NCBI GenBank assembly: GCA_050084515.1
Contig: CM114271.1
Location: 35,030,001 to 35,094,000 of the forward strand
Direction of reading: 5' to 3'
Source: Blasia pusilla
Taxonomy: Eukaryota
DNA: 64,000 nucleotides
Shown: one piece after another, positions 19,791 to 64,000 of the stretch
Layout: each line of letters begins with the position of its first letter
Numbering within the stretch: the stretch's first letter is position 1
Made by a program: the position numbers and the translations under genes
Notes under the pieces: model-generated
Seen by the model: the letters and a program-made list of their open reading frames with translations, nothing else
Told to the model about the DNA's origin: nothing
Database searches by the model: none

Positions 19791-19796
19791 TTGATG

Positions 19797-19946
19797 TGCA
19801 TGTTGTGTGGGTCTGCTGGTAACGCAACCCGTATGTTGGTGTGTGATCGGTGTTCTAGGGGTTGGCACATGATGTGTTTGACTCCACGTATAGATGTTGT
19901 TCCTCTTGGAAGGTAGGTTTGTCCTCGATGTACTAAGGAGAGGTAG
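19797..19946 (+). pseudogene. PHD finger (C4HC3) at the integrase C-terminus of copy A
   Basis: CMLCGS...MLVCDRCSRGWHMMCLTP...VP.GR*VCPRC, with TAG where PHD fingers have the conserved Trp. Confidence 0.9.
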
Positions 19947-33100: not shown

Positions 33101-33546
33101 GCGTTTGAGGCACGGATGAAACGGGAGTTTGGCGCTGAAACCCAAACCCAAACCCGATCCAAGGGAGTGGACTTTGTACGCCACACTTGGATTCCAACCG
33201 AGATTCACCGTCAAGTGCGAGTCTTGGTGAGGAACTCATTGGATGTTCATCGGACGATTGGAACCGCTAGGCGCGAAACGCCACAGTGCAGTTGTTCCTG
33301 AACCGACCAGAAAGTCTGTCCCAAGTCTTTCGAGACTTGCCCGTGTTGGAAACCGCGAAACTAGGAAGGTTGAGCTTGAAGAGAGAGTCCGAGACGAGAA
33401 CTCGGAAAGTAATCCCGCTGATTGATCCAAGACCCGACTAACCGAAGTGCGTGTTTGGATGTAGATCAGCGTTGAGAGCGTGACCTACTGAACGCACGCT
33501 TCCGCAACAAACAAGATTAACGTTCAAGAAGAGTAGGCGCACGACA
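26128..33546 (+). mobile_element. Full-length Ty3/Gypsy chromovirus, LTRs 26128-27157 and 32515-33546
   Basis: TGTCGCG...CACGACA LTRs; PBS TGGTATCAGAGC; gag CCHC CYNCGEPGHMAKEC (~28290); protease remnant LLVDT; RT YIDD; RNase H TDASD; INT-chromodomain; many 1-nt indels. Confidence 0.95.
27160..27171 (+). promoter_or_regulatory. Primer-binding site complementary to the tRNA-iMet 3' end
   Basis: TGGTATCAGAGC begins 2 nt after the LTR end. Confidence 0.9.
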
Positions 33547-35299: not shown

Positions 35300-36300
35300 G
35301 ACATGAAAGGAGATGTGACTGCAAAGGTTATTCATCCCATGATTTTTGTGCTTGTACAATATTCCATCCTTGGTAGAGTTGATGGTATGGCATGCTCGCC
35401 ATCGATCCATTGATGGTGTGATATGGTTGATAGTGGACTCTCCAATCCATTCCTATGTAGAGAGCACCTACTCAATTTGGCAACCAGAGCCAAGGAATGT
35501 AGAATTGGATCTAGGTACCACTCGGATGTGACTCTACAGTCTTACAAAACGATGCTACTGAGTGTGGCTAATTATGTTGGTGAATTATGACATCCATCTT
35601 GGTTGGCTATGGAGAAGGGTTTCTTGATTATGGGATTGATCATCATGAGTCCATATTATGACATTTCCTTAAGTAAGTAGCATGAATACACATATTCATT
35701 TCATGGAATATAATTCCATAAATAATATGTTGTGTATGTTAATGAGCTCTCCATGATGCACGCCTAAGATGGCTTGCCATGTAGACATGTAACTTGAGCC
35801 CTTGGGGAGGAGTTATCCACCCTATTTGGGGGGAGTTCATATGCCAAATCTTGCCGTGGATAGGAGAATTCAATGTCATGAGAAGACAAGGGTTTTCAGA
35901 CCTTGGGCCATGGTGTTATGCACTAGGCATTATGCACTTAGTAATTATTTTGGATCGCCCCTTGTTCTTATGACGCATCATGCTTATCAATGGTAATACG
36001 ATAGCATAGTAAGTGGATCATAACTATGCAATTAATATCATTTAACTCTTACTTTGGATTGTAAAGATTGTGGATACATATCCGTTTTGCAAGTTTCAAG
36101 TAAGGTAGCATATCCTAGGTGTAGACTTGGGTCGGAGGCTGCATATTGCGGGAGAGTTGAGGACCACCATATACCCAAGTGCGGCCAAGTATTTTCCTCG
36201 TGGGCATTCCATAAGGGTGGACTAGCTAGGAAGGACACTTGATAGATGACATTGAAGTATCATCTCCTATGTTGCATGTGGATTGATTGGTGTAGGAAGA
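35300..36300 (+). pseudogene. Degenerate CACTA (En/Spm) Tnp2-like transposase remnant
   Basis: LMVWHARHRSIDG...VDSP...EPRNVELDLGT resembles the Transposase_21 pattern M.WH...DG...DSP.W...EPRN.RLGL.TDG; boundaries uncertain. Confidence 0.65.
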
Positions 36301-38849: not shown

Positions 38850-41800
38850 GCATGAAGACATGGATATTCTTATGGGTCAAGAAGAATTTCTTATGGATCA
38901 AGAACTATGGGAGGTTGTTATAGATAATGAGGCCAAGCCAAAGAGTAATTCAAAAAACTTGAATTTTCACGCTTGGAACAAACGTGCAAGAAAAACAATC
39001 CACTATATCTCATAAAAACCATAAGTTCACCAATAATTGGTCACATTCAAGATGTTGATATCCCAAGGGCGGTCTCATTATGCATTCAAAAGCTATTCCA
39101 AACATCTACAAAGACTAGAAAGCTTCAATTGAACAAAATCAGGAAACGATCACAAAACATCAATGATTATATTTTGAGTATCAGAAAAAATATGGATTAG
39201 TTGAATAGCATTGGAGTGATTACATAAGATTACGATTCGATTTTCTTACTCTTCAAGGCCTTCCAAAATATTACAAATCTCTTGAGACCTCTATTTCTAT
39301 GGGAGAAAAGTATCTAACCTTTCAAGAGTTAGTCTCATTGTTAATTAGGAATCACATGCACCTAGTTGACAATAGTAGCTCGTTTAGTATACAACATAGT
39401 ATTCTATTTATAGATAATGGATGAAATAGAAGAAAAGGTCGTGGTAGAAGCTTCCATGATCATCTGGAATATCAAGCCTATGGAGGAAGAGGCACTGAAC
39501 ATAATTTCACTCAATCAACTTTGAACCAACACTAAACACTATCATGAGGTGATGATAATAGAAACTATTGGATCAAGGTTAGCAACAAAAGGTCCTTGGA
39601 TCTTACAATTATTATGGAATGAAGGATCAATATGCAAAATTTTGCTTCAAAAAGAAGGTACATATGAGAATAGGAATCTTATAACAACAAAACTATATGG
39701 AGCAAGAACATCAAATACAATATCAAGATATAATAATACTTATAAAGTGAGCATATTTTGCTATAACTCTCAGTCATCATATAAGAGTAATGTTCAAGAA
39801 AGACTCTACTATAGATTAGTAAATCAAATTTGGTAAGTCAAATTAGTCACACAACCTTATAAGCTAAATGGTTTAGTAGTATGGAGCATATGAAAGAAGA
39901 TCCTACAATATTGCTCACAAGAGATTATATGCAATATTATATCACATATATCAAGAAAATTCAAATAAAATCAAATGATCTCTATGTTCTTGGAAATATT
40001 TTCTACATTCTTACCATTGCAAAAAAATATTGATGTCTGAAAAATTGATAGTATAAGAGGATTATCAGATGAAGTTTAACATATATAAATGGTTGCTTTA
40101 TTGAAACAATGGATGATCATACTTTGATAGTCAAAGGAAAAAGATTTGGAGAAATGTTCAAATTAGCTATTTTTATGCCCGATATTCTAATAATAATGTA
40201 TGGTCAAACTAGGCAATAAGGACTAGATCTCAATGTATGGCATAAGAGAATTGGTCATATGAACCTTAAAAGACAAAAAAAAGTCTTTTTCACCATCTAA
40301 TCTATTACTAGGATTGCCTAAATTATTGATTTCTACTATGTCAGAGATATGCCTCACTTGCCAATCTAGAGAACAAACTAGATTTCCATTTCCTAAGCAA
40401 GGCAGAAGAACATCTTAAATATTGGATTTGATTCACTTTGATGTGTTGAGAATATCACAACATACTCTTTGTGGTTGCCATCACTTTGTTTCATTTACTG
40501 ATAACTTCCCTAGATATATATGGGTATACTTTTGGAAAGCCAAGTTAGAAGTATTCTCAATATTTGAAATATTTGGAATTCTAGTAGAGAAGTAAATTGG
40601 ACATCACATTCTTAAATTGCGTTGTGATGGAGGAGGAAATTATCACTCAATATAATTTGATGACTACTTAGTACATCAAGATGGCATCTAACAACAAGTC
40701 ACTCGCAGTTTTAATCCACAAAAAATAGAGTGATTCAGTGGAGGAGTTGACATATTGTTGAGGTAGTACGAGCTATATTAAATGAGAAGAATATGCCTAA
40801 GAAGCATGGGGTACAGGTTGTAGCGTGTACGATCTTCTTAATCAACCAACCTTCAATAATAGGAGTTCATGCTAAGAATCCATTCTAAGTCTTCACAATT
40901 AGTGAACATGATTTCTCATTTTTTAAAGTCTTTGGTTGTGTTTTTATGCTTATTTTCCTTTCGGAAGACGTAAAAAATAAGATCCCAAATCTTAGAGATA
41001 TATATTCTTTGGCTATCTTGATGAAACTAAATAATATCAATATTACTTTCCATCATCTATGCAACTTATTATTAGCGGAGATATCTATTCTTTTGAGTTG
41101 AAGTCATGGTAAGCTCCATGTTAACCTATTCCACCTCTACGTATGTTTGTTGAGGGAAAGAATATGAGCATAAATAAATAGAATTTCATATAATTCTCCA
41201 AGTTCGAGTGTAAGGTTAGAAAGGGTCATAGACTCTCCACTTAAATATGTCAATCCATAATTGATAAGACTATATATTGAGTGTGTTGATACTAGTTAGA
41301 GCTCAAATTAGATGCTATAGACGTCCATCTCTAAACAAAAAATTCATAAGTAAAATAGAATCACACATCTTGTTCATAAATTCATAAATGAAGTATTTCT
41401 TGCAACATATCAATGATATGTATATATAATGACTATCCTTCAAGAACATAAACCGAGTTGTTTTGAAGTTGCATGTAAGATTTAATGGATTGAAGTTATA
41501 GATGATTCGAAGAGCTTGTTATATTAAGGCATCAATAGACTTAGTAAGGAAGCTATTGGTTGCAAACTGGTTTATAATATCAAGCGCAATCAAGATGGTA
41601 TAATGAACATATAGAAAGCCATGTTGGTAGTCAATGGCTATGCACAACAATATGGTATCGACTATGATGAGATATTTAACCATGTTGCAAAGACGACGAT
41701 TACGAGAACAATGGTCGTAGTTGTAATGAGTAAGAAGCGGAGACTACATCACATAAACAAGAAGAATTACTTCTTGAATAGAGATTTGCATGAGGAAGTA

Positions 41801-41851
41801 TACATAGATCAAACCCTTGGATATCACTCATATGAGCATCTAAAGTTTTGA
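38850..41851 (+). mobile_element. Heavily decayed Ty1/Copia internal region (gag, pre-integrase, integrase, start of RT), 3'-truncated
   Basis: QELWEVV (gag start), VWHKRIGHMN (~40235), LDLIHFDV, LRCDGGG, AIGCKLVY..K...G, LVVNGYAQQYGIDYDEIF; INT-before-RT order. Confidence 0.88.
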
Positions 41852-41865
41852 TACCGCATATACAT

Positions 41866-42800
41866 TGTCACGTCTTTTAGGATAGATCGGTGAGATCTAG
41901 TAGAGCGCCTTTGTGAGTAGTAGAGAATAGGCTCACTAGGTCGAGGGAAACCTGTTGAGGCCCAAGGAAACCTGAGAGAGCAGATTTCCCCTTCGTTCCG
42001 GCTCGTTTGGAGCCATATTGAGGAACTTACTATTTTAGGTAAGTACCATTTTGAGTATATGATCGACTTTATATTTTTGGTAAGTGATCCTTGACCTCCT
42101 ACATCAAGGACAAGAGCCAAGAAGTGACTTGGGAGCATAGGTTACCATTGAGAGACCTTGGGAGAGATGAGGGATATACCTCAAGGAGAGAGAGTTTGAG
42201 AGCTCATTCTCTCTTTGTTGAACCTCATGGCATGAGGCGGCGGAGCTATGGTCTTGCTTGCCTTGTGTGTGTAACCCAAGCCTCTCATTAGGAAAGTGGA
42301 TTTGGTTTGACATTGAGAGACACATGTGAGACTGCACATATGTGAGAACTATGGTGTTGTGAGAGAGATTGGATCTTATTTTACAAAGAGAGAATTGAGT
42401 GAGTGAGAGAGTTTCATGGGGGAGCTTGGTGGTTGTTCGATGTTTGAAGTAGGTAAGGGGAACGTGTTCCCCACTTCATGGCTCATGGGAGTGCTCGCCA
42501 GAGCAAGAGCCGTGCGAGTTTGCTGTTTTGCTTTGCTAATTTTTTGTACGGGAGAGTGGCACGCGGAAGCGCTGCCCAATTTTTGATAGGAATTGAATAT
42601 GGAGGCGGATTGCTACATGCTGGTGCTCTCACGATCACCATGTAGCTTGCTGATTTGTGTTCTCAAAGGTTTTACATTTTCGTTGGGAGAAATCAGCGCG
42701 GAAGCGCTGCCAAATTTTGTGTAGGAGAAAGAGACATTGGGTTTTACGTCAATCCCTGTCAGTTTGTACTGGAATTTTTGATTTCAAATAATTTTTGACA
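41866..42800. mobile_element. Possible LTR-like segment interrupting the Copia RT
   Basis: TGTCA...TGACA termini and an abrupt composition change; no matching TSD. Confidence 0.3.
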
Positions 42801-44237: not shown

Positions 44238-47200
44238 CTTAACGACACAGCATACATCGCTGTCACCGAACACACACACAAACATGCACGATCCCATGTT
44301 AACTCATGGCATCCAAAGAATGAGACAAGAAGTACCAAAATATCTCCAATCGCCCCCCTATTTGGTGGTTAGGTCCCTCTAACTCTAGATACCCATCTAT
44401 CCCTAACTACCATGATATACATCTCTCGGACGCTAAGACCAAGAAGGCCGGGTGCTCATGTGGCCCCATTGTTTGTTGCCTTCTTGTCATCCATGTCACA
44501 AACACAAGTCGGGATGTAGAACTACCTACTCTATGTACATCTGGGACACATCCATCGTCCCTAAGGAACCCTAATGAGAGGTGGCGTCAAACCTACCATA
44601 TGCCATCATGTCGAACATCCATCTCAGACTAGCATAGTGGCTGCACCACGGGCGGAACCACACAACATACACCGCAAGCTTGCAGGAACTATTGCTAAGC
44701 TCGGATCAACTGTACCGTCAATGTTCGGAAGATGACATGGCGCACAGTGACGCACACGGTCCTTCTAAGCCTTACCATCGCGTCCCTCTAATAAGAGAAC
44801 ACCGGATGGCAAAACCTCACGTAGTCTCAAGATGGTGCGCCCAATAGTCACATCCAACATCATGGATACCGTCTGCTACAAGTAGACATAGTCTCCGTGA
44901 TGAAACCTCCGGATAGTAGGTCGATAACCACCTCTCTAAATAGTCGCATACCTCAATGTATCCTGATGTTGCGCAATCGCCAAGTTCTCAAACATCATGG
45001 GCATCATTCTCTGTAACAACTCAGCCCTCTCACAACATGCTCCCATCCAGACATCAGGGTTATCAAGGTTCAACACCTCAATTGTATCTCGATGAATGGC
45101 CGCTGGTAAATTTGGCTCTGGGCCATAGAGCAACAAGTACGGTGAGAAAGACGCTAAGGATGCTTGCCTGCTAAATCTGTATCCCATCGCCAACCATGGA
45201 AATTGTAGGTCCCAATCTCTTAGGTGATCTCTCTGCAAGCTATACTTGCGTAGTCCTCTCTTCACCGTCTGCACAACCCGCTCCGCTAGTCCATCTGCCT
45301 TAGGATGATCTCGCGAAGTAGTGCGGTGGTCGATCAGTGTCTAATCACACAAGGCCTAAAACTCCCCGCAGAACTCTGTACCCTGGTCTGTCAACACCTC
45401 AGCTGGTGTGCCATAATGACTCAACAGTCAATCTAGGAAGGCAAACGCTACTCCCTCACTCGCTTTTTCAAGCAATGCTACCAACTCTATTCACTTCGAG
45501 AAGTGATCGACCATCACCAACACATAATGACTATGGCGCTCCGTCAAAGGCAAAGGTCTTGCAAAATCCAAACTCCATCTATAACTTAAACCCATGATGG
45601 GAAGTGGATGCAACTGTGGAGTTGGAGCATAGAATGATGCTCGGACTTGATCACACACCATGCATCTGGCAACAAACTGCTAAACGTCAATTTGCATGCC
45701 TCGCCACCAATATTGAATCTAGAGCAAGGTGTACGTCCGCTTCTCTCCAAAATGACCCAACTCCTCGTGGGCATGACCCACCAAACCTGCTCTCTGCAAA
45801 GGAGGAGGCACTACACGCACTCTACCATCCTCCCACACTTGCAACACATGTATGCCTTCCCACGGGAATCGTCTAGCTCGTTGTAGGATCCGATCCCGCT
45901 CTCTAGCACCCACTCTGCTCGCGACGCTGCCAGTACACAAGTACTCCTAGACCAATCCATCGTCGTGAATGTCTCAGCCACCTGTCATCTCCTCATCGGC
46001 CTCTGGATCTTAGGACTCTCCATCAAACCTCGCCATCAAAGTCTCAGCAATCTGGCTCTCCAGAGCCAACAAGCCCAAATAGGCTGAAGCATGCCATCCT
46101 GGCACCAACTCCTCATCACTCTCACCATGCCCACGAGCTATAGTTGCATCTCGCTGACTCGAGCATGGGTTACGGCTCAAACCATTTGCATCCTGGTTGA
46201 GCATCCCAGGTCTATGCACTACTTGGAAGTCATACTCCTGCAACAAAAGAGCCCACCTCGTAAGCTTCCCTGTAAGCTTGTCAGAATCTATCAACCACTT
46301 AAGTGGCTAATGATCAGTAATGATGGTAAAGGGATTGTCAAATAGATAACATCTGAAATGTGCGACAGCCCATATTGCAGCCAAGCACTCACCCTCATAC
46401 GAGCTATACTTTGCCTCTGCAGCATTGTTCGAGCGAGTAGCATAAGCCACCAAAAACTCTCTACCATCATTGTCATGTTGGGTGAGCATGGCTCCAAGCC
46501 CCAACATGCTCCAATCGGTATGCAACTTGAAAGGACGGCCCCTAATCAGTCTCCTCAATATGGGCGTGGACGTCAATCTGTCCTTGAGCATCTGAAATGC
46601 TCTCTCTTGCTCATCCCCCCAATGCCACTCTTGATCCACCTTGGTCATCAAGGTTAGCGGCTTTGCAATCGAACTAAAACCCTTGATGTATCGTCAATAG
46701 AAGTTTGCCAATCCCATGAATGTACGAATTCGACTCACATCAGTAGGGCATGGAATGCGTGAAATAGCCTCTACCTTTGTCTATTGCACACCAAGGCCCC
46801 CAGGGTATATTGTATGACCCAAGTACTCAATCTGGTTGTAGAAGAACTTGCACTTGCTTGGATGTAGCTTTAGCCCATGTAATTGCAATCGTCGAAACAC
46901 CTCCTCTAGATGTCGCTCATACTCCTCAACCGTGGCGCTAAAGACTACAATGTCATCAATATAACACCTAACAAAATCCAGACCTGCCAAGATCCTATCC
47001 ATAACCCTCTGAAACTCAGTTGGGGTGTTCTTTAACCTGAATGGTAAGAACCGCCACAGTACAAACAATCCTTCCCTTCTAGATCAATGCCCCAAAATGC
47101 CGTCTTCGCTTGTCCTCCAATCTGATAGGCAGTTGATGGTATCCGGCTCGCAAATCCAATGAATTGAAGACCTCTGCATGCCAAATTGCATCAAAGATCT

Positions 47201-50200
47201 CCTCACGGGTGGGCATGGCATACCTATCAGCCTTTGTCTGCCGATTGATAGGTCAGTAATCTCCACACATCCGCCTATCCGTCCAATTGCCATGCACATC
47301 CTTCTTGGTGGGCATGACAGTGGCAGATGCATACTCTCCATGCAACATTTCCACTAGTCCTGCTCCAACCAAGTCTTGGCCCCTACTCTGAATTAGAGCC
47401 CTCTCCATGTCACTATACCTATAGGGTCGTTGGAAGGTCGGCGTATCACTCGACAACTCAATGCGGATCCCTGGACCCTTCAGCGTACCCAAATCATGCA
47501 TACTAAATGCAAAACAACTCCTATAACTCTTAAGAACTGGTGTATCTGACGCCGCTCTCCTCTTGTCAACTTAGGACCCATATCTGGCTCCCAAGTCTCC
47601 ATCGTGACTACGATAGGACTCTTCGGCGCGGATGTTGGTGGTCGCTATGGTGCAACCCCATCTTGGACAATAGAACTCAGAACCACTTCCGATGCTGTGG
47701 CTATCATCTCCAAGCGTACATGCAAAACATCCCAAGAAGTCCAAGGGTGTCTCTCTCGATCACCCCTAGTGTGTCGACCTCCTTGGGTCTGGCCCCCAAC
47801 CACTGCCTCAACTGTCTCGGTAGGCATGGGGCTCACCAACGCAACAAATGTGATCTGTTGCATCCTCAAACAACGTTGCTCAGTTACTCCCAAGCTGAAA
47901 ATCCATGTCAAGCAGTTCAGGTCCATCGCCTGACCCAAGACATGACGTCGTGATGCCTCCGATAGTGACGGTACTTCCGTCACTCCTGTGGGGAATCCCA
48001 TTGCTCGCTCTCGCTCATCGGCGTTGGGCTCCAACAACCTCTATACCTAGTCATCCCAAACCAAGCTAGGTCCGGCCTCCTTGAATGCATAGGAAGCAGG
48101 AAACTTAGCAATGTGGGATAGGCGGATCGTGGCATGCCAATCCTGTTGACCATAGTCAACGGCGGTCGATCATCATGCCTCACTGCCTGTGATCGACCGC
48201 TCGGATCCAATATAGAATCCACCAACAAATCGGAGGGACGCTCCACTCTTGCATAAGCCCTCCGTAATACCTCATTAGGTACCAAGTTGGTCCACCAAAG
48301 ACGCGAGCGATGTGCTTGTGAACCCACACTCACTGCATCTAACAACACTGCCGGGCCGATCCATGCGCGCACCTGATGTGCACTCGTCACCACGCGGGAC
48401 CTCAAATCGCCCAGAATTGGAACATTCTCCAAAATGTATGTTGGAGAACGAGATTGATGCTCATGTAAACGTTGCAAGATCCGCATCATCTCCCAAAACA
48501 ACCTGGACCGAGTGTCAGCTAACCCACTACCTTGTTCAGCACTGGATTGGCCCTGACACAGCCAACGAGCAGTGACCAAGTCTATGGTCCCTACCCGCTC
48601 CAAGTCCTGCGCCCCCAACAATGAAATCTCCCTCGGTAGGGAACTCTGGAAACCTTGAATGGCGGACACAGACAACAAGCCGGGAAAACGGAGGAGTAAC
48701 AGCGCCACATGGTGAAGTGAAGCGCGCCTCACAACATCATCAATCTCCACATATAGATACTGCTGCATGTGCACTCCAGCCTGCAAAATAGCAGCTAACC
48801 CAGTGCTGATCCTTCCAAAGAGATCCAACATCCAAATACCCTCCTATGGGATGCACAACACAATCAGGGTGGTGTCCAAATGGGTCATAGCAGCACTCCT
48901 ACCTACGTGGGGTTCCTCTGACCCGTCACACTCTAGTGCAAATGTCTCGCTCCACGCGGTCTGCATATGCTCAGTGGCTAAGCGTTGAAGCTCCTCAGTC
49001 AATCCCCAAAACGACACCTCTCCTCCACGAACTGATGCGGTAGTAATCTAGGGAAAACCCCATCGGGTATATCAGTGCTCCACCAGCCAAGACATCGTAG
49101 GACTCTGCATCAGTCTCTATCGCCTTGGCTCGCACCACGGACTCATCTGTAGGATGTCCCACGCGAATCCTCACCATGACCTCTTGTCGGGTGATATACT
49201 GTGTGATACTCGCTCCACCCAAGGATGTATGTATCGGAAATGGACAACGCTCCACATCGGCTCTCGTCAAGCCCCCATTCCTCTGAATGACGCTTTTCCC
49301 AACATCAGGGGTTGCACTCCTGAATCCAACAAGACGCGCTATGGATTGAAAGCTCTACCTCTAGGACTCACCAACTGGAAGACCTCTCCATGATTATCTA
49401 GCAACACAACACCAAGAGAAAACATGGCACGCTCTATCGCGGGTCTAGCGGGCTTCTCCGCCATCCTAGCAGCCGCAGTCTGCCATGAATCTGACGTGGA
49501 CGGCCCCAGCGTCCGCTCCAAGGGCAAGTCCATCACCTCCTCTGCAATCACCTCTGAACCTGATGTAAGAACTCCAACTCCACGCTCACATAGCATAGCG
49601 GCCAGCCAAAAAACCTCGGCGGGCGTACCTCCCAACATCATAACATCGGAAGCAGAAAATAAAGGAGCGGGGTACACAACGGTGGCCGCCCCCAACAACG
49701 TGCTCGACACATGCCCCTCTTGAGCATCAACAATATAAGAGTTGTTGCACTTGCTTCTCTCATCGCCCTCCATGCCTGCACACCAACAACATCACCAACT
49801 CTCCAAGAACTTTGATGAGGACCCATCGATGGGGTCCTCATCGCTTCGGACAACGTGAAAGACTTAGGAAGCCTAGTCTATTTTCTGGCTTCCCCTCATT
49901 GTGGATCCAACTCTCCGGTTGCTCCACGCGTCACAACTGTGGTGGCCTCCATCTGGGCAACCCCGCACATCCAACCAAGATCCTCCATATCTCTGGCTGC
50001 TCCATATGATGTCGATGCCATGGATCCGGCATCGGGTAACCTCAATGCCATAGCGGCAATCTGCTCTTGTAGCTACTGTATCTGAGCAGCCATCCTAGCC
50101 TCACATCCGGCATCTCCCTCGGCACGTCTAGGTGGTGGTACTCTACCTCCTCCACAAGCAGCTCCACCACCCTGTCGGGCAACTCCAACTTCTCGTTCCC

Positions 50201-54657: not shown

Positions 54658-55109
54658 TCCCTGAAGATTCCACCAGGAGGAGACTGAGAATGAGAATGAG
54701 AATTTTTAATTTATAGTGAATAGGAACTCAGATTCTCCTGACAGAATTTGACTGACAAGATGAAGTTTGGTAGGTGAAAATTTCTGACACAATGGATTCA
54801 ATTTTGTTGCAACCTGTCGGAGTCATGTGGGTTACAGAATTTGGGAATCAGAGACGTGGGTTGCGAAGCACACTTCATTTTGTTGGAACCCGTCGAAGTC
54901 CGTTGGGTTGGTACCCCCTTCTTGCCGACCAAAGATCTTTTGAGGCAATTTTGCTATCATCAAACACAAGATATCGCTTGCTTATGCTAGGGAAACTAAT
55001 CGTTGGGGACTTTTGCAGGATTGTCCAACTCAGGGTACATCTTGTGACCCGTCGGATTGCAATGGGTTGCCTCGGAAAATACGTTGTTGCATTGTTTCCC
55101 GAGGGATAG

Positions 55110-55810
55110 GAAAGCGTGCAACCTGTCGATAACCGACGGGTTGCCTTGGTACCTTGCCTATTAACCCAAAATAAGCGAAGCATGCAACTCATCGGCTTCA
55201 GACGGGTTGCACGCTTCTGCCTCACCTTGTAACGCAAACATGAACGAAGCGTGCAACCCGTCGCTCTCCGACGAGTTGCGTGGGTACCGCGCCTTCTTGC
55301 TCAAAGAAGGCGGAGGCGCGCAACCTGTCGGCCTCAGACGGGTTGCACAATTATCTCACGGTGTAACACTTACATTAAGGAAGCGTGCAACCTGTCTATT
55401 TCCGACGAGTTGCGCGGGTGCCGTACCTTCTTGCCCAGAGACGGCGAGGCGTGCAACCCGTCGACCCCAGACGGGTTGCCCAAGGGCCTCGCCTTGTTTC
55501 GCTTACATGAAGGAAGCGTGCAGCCTGTCGGACTCCGACGAGTTGCACGGGAAGCCCGCATTGTTATCCCTTGACGAGGGAAGCGTGCAACCCAACGGTC
55601 TCCGACGGGTTGCGTGGGTACCTCGAGTTCTTGTCCGAAGACGGCGGAGGCGCGCAACCTATCGGTCTCCGACGGGTTTCTCGGGCACCTCGCATTCTCG
55701 TCCCAGGACGGCGGAGGCGGGAAACCTATCGGTCTCGGACAGGCTGCCACGAGGACGGATGCCTTGAACCCTCGGGAAGTGTGCAACCCGTCGAAGCCGT
55801 CGGGTTGGTG
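55110..55810. repeat. ~67-bp-period tandem array, each unit carrying the 27-bp palindrome, in the divergent promoter region
   Basis: Palindrome starts at ~55118, 55184, 55253, 55320, 55387, 55453, 55520, 55587, 55654, 55721, 55783. Confidence 0.9.
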
Positions 55811-56184: not shown

Positions 56185-59100
56185 ATGACGAGGAAAAAAT
56201 CTCAAGTGAACAAGGCTGGGAGCTTCACTCCCAAGCCCATGAGGACTCCTGCATCACCATCTCCAGGGCCTCGTTCGGCCAATGAGATAAGGCAGCAAGA
56301 AATCGAGGAGCGGGAAAGGGAAGCGGAGATGCACAAGCAGGAGCTTCTTGGAAAACGTGTACAGGAGGCGCTCAAAAAAAAGAACGTAGAGGCTGAGGCG
56401 TCGCAGGCCTAGAAGAAAAGGGTCGTCGAAGAAAAGCGAGAAAAGAAACGTCTGGACGCGTCGGTGAGGAGATTAGAATTGGCTAAAGCGAGGAGGGAAA
56501 AAACAATAGCCATTGACGAAAGCCCTGCCCGTCCAACCGAAAGTGTTGAGATGCAAGAAATGTCCCCGATGAAGTCTTGGGACACAATCAATATAGCGGA
56601 AATGGCCCAAGTTCAAGTCACGGACGATGAGGTCATGAGGACCACCAGCGTGGAGATTGTGGACATCGCTGAAGAAGCAAGAGAGCGGTCATCCTCGTCT
56701 CTAAGCCCGGCGGAAGAAATTGACCTCTATCGGACTGAAAATTTTCTAGTGGACTTGCCAGCTGCTGTCCTAGAGCAAGTGGTTGGCCAAGACACCGAAC
56801 CAATCTTCGAGCGGGTAAGAGAGGATCTGTGTTCTTTGAATTATGTGAAGGCCCATGTTGCAATTCATTTGCAATTCAGTGTAGCTTATTGATCTTGTCC
56901 CCGTTGTGACAAGTGATAAAGCAGATGGCACTGATGGAGGGCCACAATGCCCCGAGAATTCCACTTTGCCAATTGCGGACAATGGAGTACGTCCGCGAAA
57001 TTCAGTCTAACAAGGATATTGCGAAGCTCAAACAATCGGCGGCAACACCATCCTACGTCGACAGCTTCCCTCCGTTCTATGTTCAGCCTTGCGATGACCA
57101 TGGAACCCAAGCGCTGGTTACGGAGGAGGACTTGGAATCGCTCGACACATTCTGGAGGATGAGAGATCAGGAATTCAGAAGGGCGATAGAGGGGATGGTA
57201 TTCAGCTGGATGAGGAACCTGTATTTCTTCATATGGGATGGAAATCAGAGATTCATGGCGTGGACCCAGTTTGCAGAGGCGCGCCCAAACTCATTGGAGG
57301 CACATTTTTGTGTGAAGGCAGTGGTGCTACATCCATACCCTCATCACATGGCGATGGTGGAGATGGCCATGCATGCCATGAACACGTAAGTTTCCTCTTG
57401 CTGCAAACCGTCGGACTCCGACAAGTTGTTTGAGTCGCCACTATTTTTGGGATGTTTTAACCGAAAGCAACTTGTCGGACTCCGACGAGTTCGACGACAG
57501 ACCACAGGTTTAGGATGTTTTTGGGCCAAAGCAACTCGTCGGAGTCCGACGAGTTGCTTGACTGGCCGCATTCTTTGGATGTATTTTGAAGAAAGCAACT
57601 TGTCGGAGTCCGACGAGTTGCTCGACTCGCCGCATTTTTTGGATGTTTTTGCCCCAAAGCAACTCGTCAGAGTCCGACGAGTTGCTCGACTGGCCGCATT
57701 CTTTGGATGTATTTTGAAGAAAGAAACTCGTCGGAGTCCGACGAGTTGCTCGACTTGCCGCATTTTTTGGATGTTTTTTGAAGAAAGCAACTCGTCAGAG
57801 TCCGACGGGTTGCTTGACTCAAAGCTGTTTTTGGATGTTTTTTGATGTTTTTGGCCGAAAGCAACTCGTCGGAGTTCGACAGGTTGCATTCGAAAGTTGG
57901 GAGCTACATTTTTGGCGTCAAATTGCAACTTTCAATGAAATTGCGCAACCTGTTGGACTCCGACGGGTTGATATGTTCACTTTTTTCGCGGTAACCACTA
58001 TGTAAATACAGACTATCTAACAACCGTCGGAGTCCGACGGGTTGAAACTAGGCAATCACAAATCTGAATGCAATCCGTCGGACTCCGATGGGTTGCAAAA
58101 TTTAGCTCGTTGCTACAATCCAACCATGAGCTGTGACGACCTGTCGGAGTCCGACGGGTTGCAGGAACCCAGGTACCTTACAAAATTTCTTATATTGAGT
58201 TTGGATGTGCAGGATTGTATCGGAGGGGAATGTCACCCACCACTGGATCCAGGATTGCGATCGGGTGAAGAAAGTGCTAACGACGCACCCGGCATAGTAC
58301 AAGGGGTTCTTGGGCGACGCCCTTGTAAATGAGATGCTGGCAAAGGGTGCACAAATCAAAAAGAAGACTTGGGCAAATAAATTTATTTCCCAAGATGCAG
58401 CCGTCACAATCCTTTGCTCGTCAAAGATACAGGCCGCCAAGAAGAGCAAAGCATTGGAGCTGGAGCGGAGGGAGAAAGTGTCTATGTTTGAGCGTGCAAA
58501 ATTCATCCAAGCTGCAATATCTGCAGCTACGAAGTACACTGCAAGCAAGATGCAGCGCTACATCGCCATTCTCAACCCCGAACTTGGTCCCGATTTCTAC
58601 AAGGAGCTGAAGGCGATAATCAAGCGCCAGCGAAAAGGGATGAAGATCCGCAAGGTCGGATTGGGGAGAAAGTGTCTCTCGATCGCGTGAATCGATTTGC
58701 CTTGTCTGGAATAAGAAAATTTAGGAGAATACGACTGATGAAAATCAGTCTCGAGGGCACAAAGGCCATAAAGAGGGCGGCACACCATCCTCCGGGTGTC
58801 TCTGATCCAGTGATCTCCCATTGGCTCCGTGAATGGTCATTCTAGGACGCGTTGCGGCTTCTTGGGAAGTTCACGCTTGTGGGTCTCCAAGCGGAGCTGA
58901 AAAGAATAGAGCCACTTCCGGAGGAAAAAAACCTAGAGAGTGCTGATGATTTTGAACTTTGGCTGGATGACATCCGGGACAAGCCCATAAAAAACCCAGG
59001 ATTAAGGACGATGTTCAAGGAACGCATCCTCCCTCAGGCAGACTTTGACGAAAAAATGAGGCGAAAAAAAGGGATTTCGCAAAGAAGAAGTGAGATCTTC

Positions 59101-61027
59101 AGGAGCAGGAGGCCGATGCATCTCGACTAAGAGTTGCCCAACGCATGGTGTTCAGATACCTCATCCATTGTCAGAATGCAGGTACATGGCGAAAAATACC
59201 TGCAGCCTGCAAATTGTGGGCTTCTCCGCTTGATGGAGAGACATTTTCCATGTACGACACGGAGATGGCTCAAAGCATGTCCGATTGGGAGGTGGAGAAT
59301 TGCCCTATTTGGCTGGACTTCAATGACCCTAAGGACATAACCGAGAAAGATCTACGTCTGCTTTATGATGCACTGGCCGCAAGTAGGAACGACATCCCCA
59401 ATTTTGTGCAGCCTGCAGACTTTTTCGGAGGAGATGCGGAAGAGCAAGCCCTCGAGACAGCGGAGTTGGCGTCCAAGGTCCACACAGCCAAAGACAAATC
59501 TACAGCGGGTCTCAAAGGCAAGGCAAGGGGATCGAAGAATTCCGAGGCCGAGTCTTCCCAAAGAGAGGCTGAAGATTGAAGGCGAGAGCCGGAATCGTCC
59601 GGGCGAGTGGGGAGAGAGGGTCAGACCAGGTCCTCCGCAAAAAAAACTCCACCTGACTTATAGAGACCCCAACAAGCCGACCGCAGACTCGGGAGAAGCA
59701 GAAGCGAGAGGCGCCAGGGTTGTCCCAAGGAGCAGACTAGGATGTGGAATACAGTCCATCATCCTTGGGAAGATATAGAGAAACAATGACCCAGAAAAGC
59801 GTCATCCTTCACTTCACGAATCTACTTGATGAGATGAAAAGTTTCAATTCCCAAGCGTCAACACACGCCATCGAGAAATTGACAACGCTGGGACGAAAGC
59901 TTCAACGAAATGGGCACGCTCCCTGGACGGTCCATGGGATGGTCGAAGAGGTGGCGGTGGATCTCTTGGTCGCTAATTTGCCCTCGGGGTTGCGCTTGTG
60001 GGACGAGAATCCGTCCGACGGGGTCCCAGACTGGAATGTCGCCCTTTCTTATGACCCGATCGCGCTGCTGTTTTCCTTTGCAGACGCTTATCTCAATGAC
60101 AGGGGTTGTTTCTTAGTTTTGACTGGAGGAAGCAAGGACAAGCTTTTCAACCTCCAATGCGTCAAGAGGTTGCTGAAGTGGAGGACGGTGCAATCGTGGA
60201 TCATCAAGAACGAGTACCCATTCCGATCCGCGACGAGTCAAATTCGGGTAAGGCTCTATTCCTGTCTCCAGATTGTATTTCTTTGACGGATTGTTTTTGT
60301 CCATGAGCAACCCGTCGCATTCCGACGGGTTGCTCATGGACAAAAATAACCCGTCGGACTCCAATACGTTGCTCCAATGTTAGGATTATAGCGAAGTTCT
60401 CTGGGGTTAAGAAAAGTTCTTTGGGGACGTGTTGCACATTATGTCACTATACTGAAAGTAGACCAGTGGTCAAGTAGCTCTTTCTTGGTGCTGACATTGT
60501 TTCCAACGTGCATCTTTACAGATGGACCACTCCTATGTTTAGTGCTTTGTTCGGCCGGAGCACAACTTCCAGGTGTTTAAGATCGTGGATCCATGCTCCA
60601 ATGCGTACAACTAAGATAATTTATACAATCCCTCCCCCCGGGAATTTACATGCAAGACGGTACCCCCTTACTTGGAGGAAGGGAAAAGTCGCCAGCCCTG
60701 ATGCAAACGCTCGTCGAGCTCTGCTCAAGGCCGGGTGACCTGGCGTTCGACTTAGTGGGGCTTTGAGGGGCGAGTATCAGAGGCGTCTGGCATAGTGGCA
60801 GGAACATTCTCTGCCTTGAGGGAAGGCAGCAATTGTTTGACCTTTGCAAGGAGGTAAGGGCAGATTACGACAGGCTAGTTGGGGCGTATAACTCTCCTCC
60901 AAAGCCGAGAGCTCCGGTTCCAAACCCACCATTGGTAGTGACACCATCGTCACTTCCCACGATTCCAAAAATCGGGAGGGCAAGGCCGACAATAATTTTA
61001 CAAGAGCTATCGGACGATGACGAGTGA
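56185..61027 (+). pseudogene. Multi-exon gene: coiled-coil N-terminus, ParB/Srx-like domain, C-terminal beta-class N4C/N6A DNA methyltransferase-like domain
   Basis: Introns 56815-~56912, 57386-58212 (GTAAG...TGCAG, splices in frame as AMNT/IVSEG) and 60248-60521; ParB-like FFIWDGNQRFMAW (~57225-57263); VDLLVANLPSGL (~59957); REKSPALMQTLVELCSRPGDLAFDLVGL*GASIRGVWHSGRNILCLE (60680-60820, outside the listed ORFs). Confidence 0.75.
57403..58162. repeat. Intronic array of ~12 palindromes; 64-bp period over 57403-57813 with a 128-bp higher-order unit
   Basis: GCAACTCGTCGGAGTCCGACGAGTTGC and variants at 57403, 57467, 57531, 57595, 57659, 57723, 57787, 57861, 57945, ~58018, 58070, ~58136. Confidence 0.93.
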
Positions 61028-61069
61028 GTTCAAAGAACTCAAGGACCCAGCTTGACTACAGCGTTTGGA

Positions 61070-62200
61070 GTAGGGATTTATTTGATGAGGAGGGCAAAAG
61101 AATTCATAGAGTAGATCAAATGAATAGTTCCGAGCTTCTTTCGGATGTAATAAAGGACAAGATTTTTTGAACGATGGTGGTGTTTCTAAAAGTTTGCTGA
61201 ATATCTTTTATGTCTTTTCGAATGTGATCGTCTATGCACTCCGTGGACTTCTATTTTGCAACCCGTCGGATTTCCACGGCTTGCAACTTTTCACTTTTTG
61301 ACCACTGCACCTTTTTAACCACTTCCAGGAAACCTGTCGGATTCCGACAGGTTGGTTGCGTGAGTGATCGGACTCTTTCCCTGTTGGTCCAACTTAAGAG
61401 GCAGTCTGGCGGGCTTCTTCACTTTGGCACCTTTCCCTAGTATCATCAAACAAGGCGTAGGCTTCTTCTCTTCTCTCAGACGTGTTGGATTCCTACTACC
61501 TGTGGGATTGCCATCACGGTATTACTAAGGACGGAGCACATATTGATATAGGATGGGTGTCACATTGCAAAGCGTACAAGATATACTGCCGAGGAAGGCG
61601 GTGGGACTCAAATTAGGTTACATGGGACCATTATGGTGTACCTAGGGGGGGCCAAGGCTCTCGAATTCGCCAACATTTTTGATCCCTGTCTACAATCGGC
61701 CAGAGGAGCCACTTGTATCCCAGGACATTCTTTTTGTACAGGAACCTAGGAGAGTTAGGAGTAAATTTGTAGATGACGAGGCTGAAGAAATCATAGACTA
61801 GATCAAATGTATATTTTCGAGGTTCCTTCGGAGGTAATAAAGGACGAGATTTTTTCAACCGATAATGGTGTTTGTAAAAGTTTGTTGGAAATTTTTTGGA
61901 CTTGTGGATTGTGTTCTTTTAGCTACTCAGAATTACAATTTTGCAACCCGTATGATTCCGACGGGTTGCAACTTTTCGCTTTTTGCCCACTGCAACTTTT
62001 TAACCATTTCTAGGCAAGCTGTCCGATTCCGACAAGTTGGCTGCTTAAGTGATCGGACTCTTTCCCTGTGAGACCAACTTCTGACGCATTGTGGCGGGCT
62101 TCTTAACTTTTGGCTCGTTCCCCTACATTCGTCAAACCAGTTGTAGGCTTCTTTTCTTGTCTAAGATGTGCAAGATTCCTACTACCTGTCGGATTGCCAT
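61070..62200 (+). repeat. Diverged ~450-bp direct duplication (about 61070-61520 and 61755-62200) carrying palindrome copies
   Basis: Shared blocks tcataga(g/c)tagatcaaatg, taataaaggac, ttttgcaacccgt, gtgatcggactctttccctgt at ~685-bp offset. Confidence 0.8.
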
Positions 62201-62966
62201 TTCGGATTCCCAACCTGTTGGATTTTTGTGGGTGTAGGGTGGAAGGGAATCACTTATCAAAATCTTTCCTTTCTTATGGTGAGCTTGCTTGCAAGGGGTG
62301 CAAGTCATCTGATTCCGATGGGTTGCAAGAGTTGCAACCTGTAAAATTCCGATGGATTGCAAGAGTTGCAACCTGTAAAATTCCGACGGGTTGGGAGGGG
62401 TGCAGCTTCTCGGTTTCTCAAATTTAGGATCTGAATGAAGGGACATCAGTTCCTCTTTACTCCAGACAGCTAACAATCTTTCACAAAGTTGGTCTTGAGC
62501 AGACATCATTCATAACCAACACAAAGTTGGTTATGAGGCAATTCAGGGGAGGCCATGATGCAGGCAAAAATCCCTGCAAAAAGAGAGGTTGGCATCGTAC
62601 CGATGCGCATCCGGGTGGTCCTCCAACAAAAATACCCATGGGCATTGCTTATTGTAGACCGAGAGAGGCAATGTTAAGAAACTTAGGCTCACATGGAGAG
62701 TGATGGAAAAATATTTGTAGTGGTCTTATGATGTCTACTTTTTTTTCGCCCCCTGGAAAAAGGAGGTTTCTTTAGGCCCGAGTGTGGACCACTACCTACT
62801 CTCTTCTAAAGATTTCATGAATTTGAAAGCAAAAAAAAATTTCAAATATGTCAAAAAGTTTTGAAGAGAGGAGGCGGATTTGGCCCTTTTTTTTTTGAAG
62901 AGAGACTCTCCTCTCTTCCTCTTTTCCTCTCCTCTCTTACTCTCTCTTGCCAGAATACCAGCCCCC

Positions 62967-63915
62967 ATGGTCGAGCACTTCTCAAAGTGAATAGAGTTTA
63001 TTGCATTGCTGGAAAAAGCGAGTGAGGGAGTAGCGTTTGGCTTCCTAGATTGAATGCTGAGTCAATACGGCGCACTAGTTGAGGTGTTGAGAGACCAGGG
63101 TACAGAGTTCCGTGGGGAGTTTCAGGCCTTGTATGATCAGGAACTGATCGACCACCGCACTACTTTGTGAGATCATCCTGAGGAAGATGGACTAGCGGAG
63201 CGGGTTGTGTAGATGGTAAAGAGAGGACTACACAAGTATGGCTTGCAAAGAGGTCACCTAGAAGATTGGGACCTTCAGTTGCCGTGGTTGGCGATCGGAT
63301 ATAGATTCAGCAGGCAGATATCCTTAGCATCTTTCTCACCGTATTTGTTGCTTTATGGCCGAGAGCCAAATTTACCTGCGGCCATTGGTCAAGATGTTGA
63401 TGAGGTGTTGAACCTTGATGACCGTGATGTATGGATGCAAGCATGTTCTCAGAGGGCTGAGTTGTTTCGGAGAGTGATGCCCATGGCGTTTGAGAACTTG
63501 GCGATTGCGCAACATCAGGATACGTAGAGGTATGCAACTATTTGGTGAGGTGGTTATTGACCTACTATCCGGAGGTTTCATCACGGAGACTATGTCTACT
63601 TGCAGCAATCGGCATCCACGACATGGGATATGATCACAGGGCGCATCATCTTGAGAGTGCGTGAGGTTTTGCCATCCGTGTTCTCTTATTGGAGAGACGC
63701 GATGGTATGGTTTGGAAGGACCATGTGCATAACTGTGGGCCATGTCATCTTCCAAACATTGACGGTACAATTGATCCGAGCTTAGCAATAGTTCCTGCAG
63801 GCTTGCGGTGTATGTTGTGTGGTTCCACCCGTGGTGCAATCACTATGCTAGTTTGTGATGGATGTTCGAGAGGATTACATATGGCATGTTTGACCCCACC
63901 TCTCACTAGGGTTCA
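62967..63915 (+). mobile_element. DNMT-Gypsy fragment D: integrase core to PHD finger, inverted relative to copy B and closely similar to it
   Basis: MVEHFSK*IE, DQGTEF, DGLAERVV, FSPYLLLYGREP, CMLCGSTRG...VCDGCSRGLHMACLTPP; matches the reverse complement of ~44570-45515. Confidence 0.9.
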
Positions 63916-64000
63916 TGTCGCGACCCTCATGACCAAACAAGTGCCAAGCGGAACATCGAACATTAGCGGGCTCACGCTAAGATGGTTTGCGCGTTGGAGT
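63916..64000 (+). mobile_element. Start of an LTR (same subfamily as the solo LTR at 10514-11525) inserted into the PHD finger of fragment D
   Basis: TGTCGCGACCCTCATGACCAAACAAGTGCC... matches the reverse complement of ~11440-11525. Confidence 0.9.

What the first reader, a model, noticed from the sequence alone, without database searches (positions are those of the whole stretch)
59900..60860. Cryptic beta-class N4C/N6A methyltransferase domain split by an intron and a frameshift
Seen: VDLLVANLPSGL at the position of catalytic motif IV (normally DLxxxDPPY or SPPY), then LFSFADAYLNDRGCFLVL (the helix-LKxxG-strand pattern). After intron 60248-60521 and a 1-nt shift near 60655 comes DGTP..GGREKSPALMQTLVELCSRPGDLAFDL...GAS......GRNILCLE, matching the K-P-x-L...PGD-V-D-F-G-G-T...GR...E SAM-binding end. 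Motif IV before motif I is the beta permutation. NLPS is not a canonical catalytic motif, so this could be a decayed enzyme or an inactive reader. 4mC writers are rare in eukaryotes; bdelloid rotifers and Marchantia are known cases.
Basis: partly seen in the sequence, partly recalled or inferred. Interest (0 to 1): 0.8.

Follow-up and report, generated by a model that had tools for sequence, protein, structure and literature searches.

The report
Decayed permuted methyltransferase-like repeat gene
This stretch is a broken copy of a gene that occurs about a hundred times in a liverwort-like genome and carries a rearranged, bacterial-type DNA-methyltransferase-like domain whose catalytic motif is unusual in every relative found, so this copy is dead but the family is worth a look.

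Summary
Both halves resemble beta-class (circularly permuted) amino-methyltransferases more than chance allows. The N half as a 4-sequence profile scores 40.9 in hhalign (0 of 200 shuffles reach it). The C half scores 36.8 (0 of 200). They lie in beta order, motif IV before motifs X-I-II, on one strand. Pfam's own N6_N4_Mtase model does not detect either half.

This is not a lone cryptic gene. DNA reads show a repeat family (12,742 reads laid, 69 of them at least 99% alike), and the window copy is a decayed member. It has in-frame stops at 58295, 60540, 60612 and 60764 and indels near 58631, 59057, 59656 and 60632. Most family reads carry a sense codon at 60764-60766, and related copies are transcribed.

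The odd motif IV (NLPS here; DLPT, DLPK and DVPE in 3 relatives, two from Riccia) is a family trait. The coding region extends 3.5 kb upstream to a possibly ParB-like exon across an RNA-supported intron (57386-58212). That domain order recalls phage ParB-methylase fusions.

The proposed intron 60248-60521 is plausible but not shown. The frameshift is a 2-nt indel at about 60632, not 1 nt at 60655.

The parts
56910..57385 (+). Upstream exon with IWDGNQRFMAW (57231-57263). Possibly a ParB/Srx-like domain. This is a lead only.
   Evidence: ESM Atlas features: best hits 0.92-0.94 to clusters carrying ParB_N (11% and 32% of members), DUF6551 (96%) and DUF3723 (31%). Not confirmed elsewhere: no Pfam hit at E<=10, no PDB hit, AF2 pLDDT 33.
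57386..58212 (+). Intron (GTAAGT...CAG) that holds a 64-nt tandem array of palindromic hairpin units.
   Evidence: The loose ends of 6 RNA reads of run X16 at 58213 match 29 of the last 30 nt before 57386. The frame runs on from mod3=0 to mod3=2 through a split codon (my reading). The array is seen.
58213..59740 (+). Middle coding region of the same gene. It is broken by a stop at 58295-58297 and by frame changes near 58631, 59057 and 59656-59659.
   Evidence: tblastn of Riccia protein P0001 residues 30-325 is colinear across three frames. Most DNA reads carry extra bases at exactly these places: +G in 572 of 824 reads, +A or +C in 177 of 238, and several insertions at 59656-59659.
59786..60247 (+). 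N half of the methyltransferase-like domain (motifs IV to VIII). The motif IV equivalent is N-L-P-S at 59975-59986 within VDLLVANLPSGL (59957-59992).
   Evidence: phmmer finds P0001 at 6.4e-13, P0002 at 6.9e-13 and P0004 at 9.9e-5. hhalign of the profile against beta-MTases gives score 40.9 and P 1.4e-5, aligning N-L-P-S to D-P-P-Y.
60248..60521 (+). Variable, apparently non-coding spacer. It may be an intron (GTAAGG...CAG) and holds a 33-nt-arm hairpin at 60285-60355.
   Evidence: RNA depth is 0 to 0.7 here against 1.5 to 20 downstream. 233 DNA reads leave the window sequence after 60265 and 194 enter at 60306. No RNA joint is listed.
60522..60634 (+). Linker coding piece in frame mod3=0 with stops TAG at 60540 and TAA at 60612. 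A 2-nt indel site lies in the C run at about 60632.
   Evidence: 60613 is T in 97 of 101 DNA reads, which makes the codon sense. 2 nt are missing in 58 of 114 DNA reads and in 6 of 11 RNA reads, which joins frame 0 to the C-half frame.
60656..60820 (+). C half of the domain: motif X-like KSP, then GD..FD, a motif I-like V-G-L-(TGA)-G-A-S, and a motif II-like GRNILCLE. The in-frame TGA is at 60764-60766.
   Evidence: hhalign scores 36.8 with P 1.2e-5 over 58 columns, template columns 211-268. Other hits: M.RsrI at E 0.45, PHROG DNA methyltransferase families at E 0.023 and 0.33, PADLOC MTase_II at E 0.066. 60765 is C in 919 of 983 DNA reads and in 33 of 35 RNA reads.
60821..61027 (+). Proline-rich and acidic C-terminal tail, with the stop codon at 61025-61027.
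   Evidence: RNA depth is highest here, up to 19.5, almost all with the first mate on the minus strand.

Best explanation
The finding is the 3' part of a pseudogene. It is one diverged copy of a transcribed repeat family of roughly 100 or more copies in a liverwort-like genome.

The family's long gene spans window 56.4-61.0 kb on the + strand. It ends in a circularly permuted (beta-class, N6_N4-type) amino-methyltransferase-like domain. The motif IV half lies at 59786-60247 and the cofactor-binding half (motifs X, I, II) at 60656-60820. They are separated by a variable spacer that is probably an intron. Upstream, across an RNA-supported intron, lies an exon that may be ParB-like. If so, the domain order would match phage and prophage ParB-methylase fusions.

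Shown:
- likeness of both halves to beta-class methyltransferases, and their order
- the repeat status of the family
- the breaks in this copy
- transcription of related copies
- the upstream intron

Inferred:
- This copy makes no functional protein.
- In intact members the C half can still bind S-adenosylmethionine, since G-x-S-G, the GD/FD acidic residues and the E of motif II are kept.
- Motif IV (D-[L/V]-P-x, with no aromatic residue and only one proline) is unlikely to catalyse ordinary N6-adenine or N4-cytosine methylation. The domain more likely acts as a cofactor- or DNA-binding module of a mobile element than as a writer.
For: Relatives. A phmmer search of 1.84 billion representatives with the N exon gave 5 hits at E<=0.001. 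I kept 3: Riccia sorocarpa KAL3687003.1, R. fluitans KAL2653794.1 and a 176-aa Logan fragment. I dropped 2, P0003 and P0005, because they are repeat proteins matched only in short repeated stretches.

N half. hhalign of the 4-sequence alignment A2 against 45 YhdJ-type beta-MTases gives score 40.9, probability 80% and P 1.4e-5, with N-L-P-S aligned on D-P-P-Y. The reversed profile scores 16.5, and 0 of 200 column shuffles reach the real score (best 28.1).

C half. The read-through with X at the stop scores 36.8, probability 81% and P 1.2e-5 over motifs X-I-II. The reversed sequence scores 14.9, and 0 of 200 shuffles reach the real score (best 23.9).

Natural-sequence control. Of 260 window ORFs of at least 75 aa, the best is a true C5 methylase at 28.7, the N-exon ORF alone is second at 23.3, and the next is 22.9.

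hmmsearch --max with the custom model over 2,022 window ORFs plus the 3 relatives. The top three hits are P0001 (E 0.026), the C-half ORF 60620-60763 (E 0.93) and P0002 (E 3.1). Only 16 of the 2,022 ORFs start within 1 kb downstream of the N half on the + strand.

Other libraries, C half only. 2 of 2 PHROG hits are 'DNA methyltransferase' (E 0.023 and 0.33). The single PADLOC hit is MTase_II (E 0.066). M.RsrI in PDB scores E 0.45 and is aligned on motif I.

Reads. 12,742 DNA reads were laid: 69 at >=99% identity, 810 at 95-99%, 7,245 at 90-95% and 4,618 below 90%. Most reads carry other letters or indels at the window's stops and frame breaks. RNA reads numbered 73, 92 and 88 in the three runs, none at >=99% identity, and were strand-biased.

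Colinearity with P0001 runs across three frames. The passage read in PMC12704722 says ParB-fold plus N6_N4 methylase fusions are frequent in phages.
Against: Pfam's curated N6_N4_Mtase model gives no hit at E<=10 for either half, for the single-frame read-through, or for the Riccia proteins. NCBIfam gives none. A profile of A2 finds nothing in PDB sequences at E<=10.

The M.RsrI hit (E 0.45) is not significant by itself and ranks below an unrelated immunoglobulin chain.

The C half has no relative in two searches of the 5.8-billion protein set, so its case rests on one broken sequence plus read variants.

Both Riccia gene models end at the N half, and P0002's similarity runs 7 codons past 60247. 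The two halves may therefore not always be one protein.

No spliced read joins 60247 to 60522. Five RNA reads that cross 60515 continue into other sequence.

The AF2 models are unusable, with pLDDT 42.7 and 33.4, so the fold is untested.

The ParB-like reading rests on language-model features and on a motif that I recall.

The hhalign P-values come from shallow profiles.
Confidence: 0.78

Rival explanations
1. Chance resemblance. The region codes for a lineage-specific repeat protein that has no evolutionary link to methyltransferases.
For: There are no Pfam or NCBIfam hits. The PDB profile search is empty. Single-sequence E-values are all above 0.01. The structure models are poor.
Against: Two separate segments each beat 200 of 200 shuffles and all 260 natural ORFs. 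They lie in the right order on one strand. The only or best library hits for the C half are DNA methylases in three separate libraries. The read majority turns the stop into the Ser of a G-x-S-G loop.
Confidence: 0.1
2. The N exon is an unpermuted (gamma-like, UPF0020/MTS-type) methyltransferase remnant with a lost motif I. The C half belongs to a different unit, such as a short derivative element, that merely lies next to it.
For: The Atlas feature hits for the N exon (0.81-0.88, below the 0.9 lead level) are MTS and UPF0020 clusters. The low-confidence AF2 secondary structure shows a strand-helix-helix-strand pattern before motif IV. DNA and RNA depth over 60625-61100 is 3 to 5 times that over 59655-60139. 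RNA reads entering at 60515 come from other upstream sequence. The Riccia models end at the N half.
Against: No glycine-rich loop precedes motif IV in any of the 4 sequences. Taken alone, the C half is only motifs X-I-II and ends the ORF 68 codons after motif II, as beta-class enzymes do. Motif X (K-P type) directly before motif I is typical of the beta class; that is my recollection of the family and also the consensus of the custom alignment. Frame 0, which the read majority leaves open at two of its three breaks in this copy, continues from a phase-0 splice at 60247/60522.
Confidence: 0.09
3. This very locus is a working split gene that makes an active 4mC or 6mA writer, through an intron plus recoding of the stop and frameshift.
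For: Related copies are transcribed from the + strand. A GT..AG intron that keeps the frame is possible.
Against: The coding region has at least 4 in-frame stops and 4 indel sites. 0 of 253 RNA reads are >=99% identical to this copy. The motif IV position has N where the 3 relatives have D, and no aromatic residue.
Confidence: 0.02

Closest known systems
Beta-class DNA amino-methyltransferases (Pfam N6_N4_Mtase PF01555; M.RsrI, E. coli YhdJ, CcrM)
   Same: The motif order is IV...VIII then X-I-II at the C terminus. Aligned features are: the hydrophobic strand plus D/N-x-P; a G-rich strand 'GCFLVL'; K-(S)-P, GD, FD and G-x-(S)-G; and GR..I/L-x-x-E.
   Different: Pfam does not detect it. Motif IV is N-L-P-S here and D-L/V-P-x in relatives, not D/S-P-P-Y. 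The setting is eukaryotic, intron-bearing and high-copy.
Phage and prophage ParB-fold plus N6_N4 methylase fusion proteins
   Same: The possible domain order is a ParB-like N terminus and a beta-class methylase C terminus. Such fusions are described as frequent in phages in PMC12704722 (passages read).
   Different: The ParB-like part here is only a lead. About 500 residues of unknown sequence lie between the domains. None of the 4 long phage methylases I checked had ParB_N, so I made no direct comparison.
Marchantia MpDN4MT1a/b and rotifer N4CMT (eukaryotic 4mC writers of bacterial origin)
   Same: These are beta-class, prokaryote-type methylases in a eukaryote. MpDN4MT1 is from a liverwort.
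   Different: They carry TSPPY/SPPY catalytic motifs and are one or two host genes with shown activity (passages in 10.1101/2021.02.12.428880; abstracts of PMC8885841 and PMC10406627). This family has no PPY motif and is a repeat.
Methyltransferase domains carried by eukaryotic mobile elements (Gypsy-DNMT3 of streptophytes, DAM-LTRs, the inactive MTase of DIRS1)
   Same: A prokaryote-like methylase domain rides on a repeated element. Like the DIRS1 domain, it has substitutions at catalytic positions (PMC4738411, passages and section 8 read; 10.64898/2026.05.21.726589, abstract and passages).
   Different: Those are retrotransposon polyprotein domains of other classes (C5, Dam, PCIF1-like). No reverse transcriptase or transposase was found in this unit. 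The preprint states that DAM-TEs are absent from Streptophyta.

Membership tests
Beta-class amino-methyltransferase (Pfam N6_N4_Mtase, PF01555) | Match to the curated family model above its cut-off | tested here: not met
   No PF01555 hit at E<=10 for the two halves, the read-through or the 3 relatives. In the same sessions the model scores 94-218 bits on true members.
Beta-class amino-methyltransferase (Pfam N6_N4_Mtase, PF01555) | Circular permutation: the motif IV block lies N-terminal to motifs X-I-II, which end the protein | tested here: met
   The N half aligns to template columns 37-93 and the C half to columns 211-268 of the same 308-column profile. Both are on the same strand, and the ORF stops 68 codons after motif II.
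Beta-class amino-methyltransferase (Pfam N6_N4_Mtase, PF01555) | Catalytic motif IV (D/N/S)-P-P-(Y/F/W) | tested here: not met
   The motif is NLPS in the window and DLPT, DLPK and DVPE in the 3 relatives. The aromatic residue and the first proline are absent in 4 of 4 sequences.
Beta-class amino-methyltransferase (Pfam N6_N4_Mtase, PF01555) | Cofactor-binding signature: motif X K-P, GD, D-x-F, G-x-G loop, and an acidic residue ending strand 2 | tested here: met
   K-S-P, PGD, FD, V-G-L-(stop)-G-A-S and LCLE are aligned to the consensus. The stop is a Ser codon in 919 of 983 DNA reads. This rests on one sequence only.
Beta-class amino-methyltransferase (Pfam N6_N4_Mtase, PF01555) | Seven-stranded Rossmann-like methyltransferase fold | tested here: inconclusive
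   AF2 on the 4-sequence alignment of the N half gave mean pLDDT 42.7. No fold search was run on it.
Beta-class amino-methyltransferase (Pfam N6_N4_Mtase, PF01555) | SAM-dependent methylation of adenine N6 or cytosine N4 | not testable with these tools
   This needs protein from an intact copy and an LC-MS assay.
ParB/Srx fold (Pfam ParB_N, PF02195) | Match to the family model or fold | tested here: inconclusive
   Atlas features score 0.92-0.94 to ParB_N, DUF6551 and DUF3723 clusters. There is no Pfam hit at E<=10, no PHROG, NCBIfam or PADLOC hit and no PDB hit. AF2 gave pLDDT 33.4.
Eukaryotic 4mC writers (MpDN4MT1, N4CMT) | (T)SPPY motif IV | tested here: not met
   No SPPY is present in the reading frame. 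A VPPY at 60660-60671 lies in a frame the family does not read there.
Transposable element | Many diverged copies in the genome | tested here: met
   12,742 DNA reads were laid at >=88% identity, against 69 at >=99%. There is only one copy inside the window.
Transposable element | Transposase or reverse transcriptase of its own, terminal repeats, target-site duplication | tested here: inconclusive
   No such domain was found in the ORFs scanned between 55.5 and 61.0 kb. The ends were not defined. The flanks are retrotransposon pieces in opposite orientations.

The most novel reading that the evidence does not exclude
Intact members of this family belong to an undescribed class of liverwort mobile element. 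That element carries a phage-style ParB-plus-permuted-methylase gene. Its product still binds SAM and marks or reads the element's own DNA (4mC or 6mA, or a new specificity given the D-L-P motif), in a lineage where 4mC is already known to matter for sperm.
Probability: 0.12. Interest if true: 0.8.

Novelty: new variant of a known kind. Interest (0 to 1): 0.5.

Why it matters
Prokaryote-type DNA methylases on eukaryotic mobile elements are a growing theme (Gypsy-DNMT3, DAM-LTRs). Liverworts are one of only two eukaryotic groups with a proven 4mC system.

A transcribed, high-copy family with a beta-class methylase-like domain has not turned up in my literature searches. A possible ParB-like partner adds to the interest. 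The family would be a further, independent import of a phage-like module into a plant lineage.

Its altered catalytic motif makes it a test case for what a permuted methylase fold does once the PPY motif is gone. The copy in this window has no function.

Tried and rejected
Whole-genome search: no genome is held for this window.

Protein-database searches with the C half: no relatives among longer proteins or proteins of similar length. A search with P0001 found only itself.

The single-protein query gave 205 pattern matches and 0 relatives.

Structure: AF2 of the N half (pLDDT 42.7) and of the ParB-like exon (pLDDT 33.4) were both too poor for a fold search, so none was run.

ParB check through phage records:
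- tblastn of the ParB-like exon against phages gave only E=8 hits.
- PF02195 was absent from 4 viral records searched; a fifth was not held.
- None of the 4 long phage methylases had ParB_N.
- I therefore built no ParB profile.

P0001 against PDB gave only an unrelated E 0.71 hit.

Sequencing runs: no RNA holder was listed by the index. The RNA evidence comes from laying raw reads.

A VPPY in frame 0 at 60660-60671 was considered as a hidden motif IV and rejected. It lies between the halves, and downstream of the 60632 indel the family reads another frame.

A direct relationship to MpDN4MT1 was rejected because the TSPPY motif is lacking.

Earlier-findings look-ups returned nothing relevant.
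Full report
WHAT IS THERE

The window looks like a plant genome crowded with retrotransposons. The only protein relatives of the finding come from the liverworts Riccia sorocarpa and R. fluitans, plus one unnamed 176-aa fragment.

- VDLLVANLPSGL at 59957-59992
- LFSFADAYLNDRGCFLVL at 60068-60121
- DGTP...FDLVGL at 60656-60763
- GAS...GRNILCLE at 60767-60820

IS THE METHYLASE LIKENESS MORE THAN CHANCE?

Curated libraries are silent or weak:
- Pfam shows no N6_N4_Mtase hit at E<=10 for either half, for a single-frame read-through with X at stops, or for the Riccia proteins.
- NCBIfam shows nothing.
- For the C half, the only hits in three other libraries are DNA methylases: M.RsrI in PDB (E 0.45, aligned on motif I, ranked below an unrelated chain at E 0.32), two PHROG 'DNA methyltransferase' families (E 0.023 and 0.33, 2 of 2 hits) and PADLOC MTase_II (E 0.066, 1 of 1 hit).

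I therefore built my own test. Starting from E. coli YhdJ, I fetched 74 viral-contig relatives. I aligned 45 sequences, 44 of them non-redundant viral ones without stops plus YhdJ itself, and made a profile.
- hmmsearch without filters over all 2,022 window ORFs of at least 20 aa plus the 3 relatives put P0001 (E 0.026, on its last 100 residues), the C-half ORF 60620-60763 (E 0.93) and P0002 (E 3.1) in the first three places. Only 16 of the 2,022 ORFs start within 1 kb downstream of the N half on that strand.
- The N half as alignment A2 (window plus 3 relatives) scores 40.9 in profile-profile comparison (probability 80%, P 1.4e-5). The reversed profile scores 16.5, and the best of 200 column shuffles scores 28.1.
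- The C half, a single sequence with X at the stop, scores 36.8 (probability 81%, P 1.2e-5) over 58 columns covering motifs X, I and II. The reversed sequence scores 14.9, and the best of 200 shuffles scores 23.9.
- As a natural-sequence control, the best of 260 window ORFs of at least 75 aa is a genuine C5 methylase (28.7). The N-exon ORF alone is second (23.3) and the next is 22.9.

The N half aligns to template columns 37-93 and the C half to columns 211-268, so the order is that of the beta permutation. The ORF ends 68 codons after motif II, as beta-class enzymes do. I take homology to the beta class as likely (about 0.8) but not proven. The profiles are shallow and the fold is untested, since the AF2 model of the N half had pLDDT 42.7.

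THE CATALYTIC MOTIF

The alignment puts N-L-P-S on D-P-P-Y. The three relatives have D-L-P-T, D-L-P-K and D-V-P-E. The missing aromatic residue and first proline are therefore a family trait. The N in place of D is special to this copy among the four sequences.

The cofactor half keeps K-(S)-P, GD, FD, the glycine loop, GR and the E of motif II.

NOT A LONE GENE BUT A DECAYED REPEAT COPY

I laid about 1% of a WGS run of the same species label on 58200-61100 at >=88% identity. This gave 12,742 reads: 69 at >=99% identity, 810 at 95-99%, 7,245 at 90-95% and 4,618 below 90%. The ratio suggests on the order of 100 or more copies, which is a rough inference. The window holds only one copy.

At this copy's defects, most reads differ from the window:

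| Place | Window | Reads |
|---|---|---|
| 60765 | G (TGA stop) | C in 919 of 983 DNA reads and 33 of 35 RNA reads, giving a Ser codon inside the glycine loop |
| 60613 | A (frame-0 TAA) | T in 97 of 101 DNA reads, removing the stop |
| about 60632 | C run | 2 nt missing in 58 of 114 DNA reads and 6 of 11 RNA reads |
| 58631 | – | extra G in 572 of 824 DNA reads |
| 59057 | – | extra A or C in 177 of 238 DNA reads |
| 59656-59659 | – | several insertions |

The 2-nt deletion at 60632 joins frame 0 upstream to the C-half frame. The frame-0 stops at 58295 and 60540 were not among the 40 differences shown (506 were not shown).

These indel sites coincide with the frame changes seen when Riccia protein P0001 is laid on the window. 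It is colinear over 58544-60250 across three frames.

TRANSCRIPTION AND INTRONS

Three RNA runs gave 73, 92 and 88 reads, none >=99% identical to this copy. Nearly all over 60528-61100 have the first mate on the minus strand, which in the usual stranded libraries means + strand RNA; the library type is not known to me. Depth is highest at 60916-61012 (19.5, 11.3 and 16.6 in the three runs) and zero at 60334-60430. Related copies are therefore expressed. Expression of this copy is not shown.

Six RNA reads ending at 58213 carry a loose end that matches 29 of the 30 nt before 57386. This defines a GTAAGT...CAG intron at 57386-58212 that removes a hairpin array and keeps the frame.

- For it: the ends are GT..AG, a phase-0 splice continues into frame 0 (the frame that expressed copies keep open), and RNA depth rises near 60520.
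- Against it: no joint was listed (15 shown, 16 not shown), and five reads crossing 60515 continue into other sequence. P0002's similarity also runs 7 codons beyond 60247, and most DNA reads leave the window sequence at 60265 (233 reads).
- I cannot tell.

THE LARGER GENE

The exon upstream of the confirmed intron (56910-57385) contains IWDGNQRFMAW. Its Atlas feature hits are ParB_N, DUF6551 and DUF3723 clusters at 0.92-0.94.

No profile library, PDB search or AF2 model confirms this, so it stays a lead. If it is right, the domain order matches the ParB-fold plus N6_N4 methylase fusions described as frequent in phages (PMC12704722, passages read).

I found no transposase or reverse transcriptase in the unit. 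Its flanks are retrotransposon pieces in opposite orientations.

COMPARISON AND NOVELTY

The Marchantia 4mC writers carry TSPPY and are two tandem host genes (10.1101/2021.02.12.428880, passages read). This family is different.

Methylase domains on eukaryotic mobile elements are known:
- an inactive domain in DIRS1 (PMC4738411, section 8 and passages)
- Gypsy-DNMT3 in streptophytes and DAM-LTRs, the latter stated to be absent from Streptophyta (10.64898/2026.05.21.726589, abstract and passages)

My three searches listed no paper whose title or abstract describes a beta-class-like, possibly ParB-linked repeat gene in liverworts. This is no proof of absence, and the supplements were closed.

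VERDICT

The beta-class reading is probably right. The copy is dead. The interesting object is the family, not this locus.

Noticed in passing
window 15487-16215 (+) and 47980-48843 (-): C5 cytosine methylase domains (Pfam DNA_methylase, E 4.5e-10 and 1.5e-5) sit inside retrotransposon-like ORF series next to protease- and RT-like ORFs. The two elements are about 70% alike in opposite orientation. They look like the Gypsy-DNMT3 elements of streptophytes mentioned in 10.64898/2026.05.21.726589.
   Followed up: partly
window 54808-55750, 57402-58170, 60306-60380, 61257-62400: There are 29 copies of a palindromic unit of about 27-35 nt (GCAACCCGTCGGA.TCCGACGGGTTGC type). Some form tandem arrays of 64-67 nt period inside the confirmed intron and around the gene. 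Read depth is highest at the array edge. Their role is unknown.
   Followed up: partly
window 61060-61514 and 61751-62200: These two direct repeats, 79% alike, lie just downstream of the gene's stop codon. RNA reads run into this region.
   Followed up: no
window 62967-63914 and 63665-64000: An integrase-like fragment begins abruptly at 62967. It is 88% alike to the reverse of 44566-45514 and 71% alike to 18967-19887. It is followed by a PHD-finger ORF (Pfam PHD, E 9.5e-8).
   Followed up: no
window 23958-27158 and 30351-33547: This 3.2-kb direct repeat is 97% identical. It covers an integrase ORF with a chromodomain-like end. It is either a recent duplication or two young element copies.
   Followed up: no
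window 7608-8807 (+): An intact-looking F-box/Kelch gene (Pfam F-box E 3.8e-10, Kelch_2 E 1.1e-8). It is probably an ordinary host gene.
   Followed up: no
window 34001-42000: An AT-rich block (GC 0.32-0.38, against about 0.48 elsewhere).
   Followed up: no
window 60660-60671: V-P-P-Y is encoded in frame 0 between the two halves. I judged it coincidental, because the family reads another frame there after the 60632 indel.
   Followed up: yes
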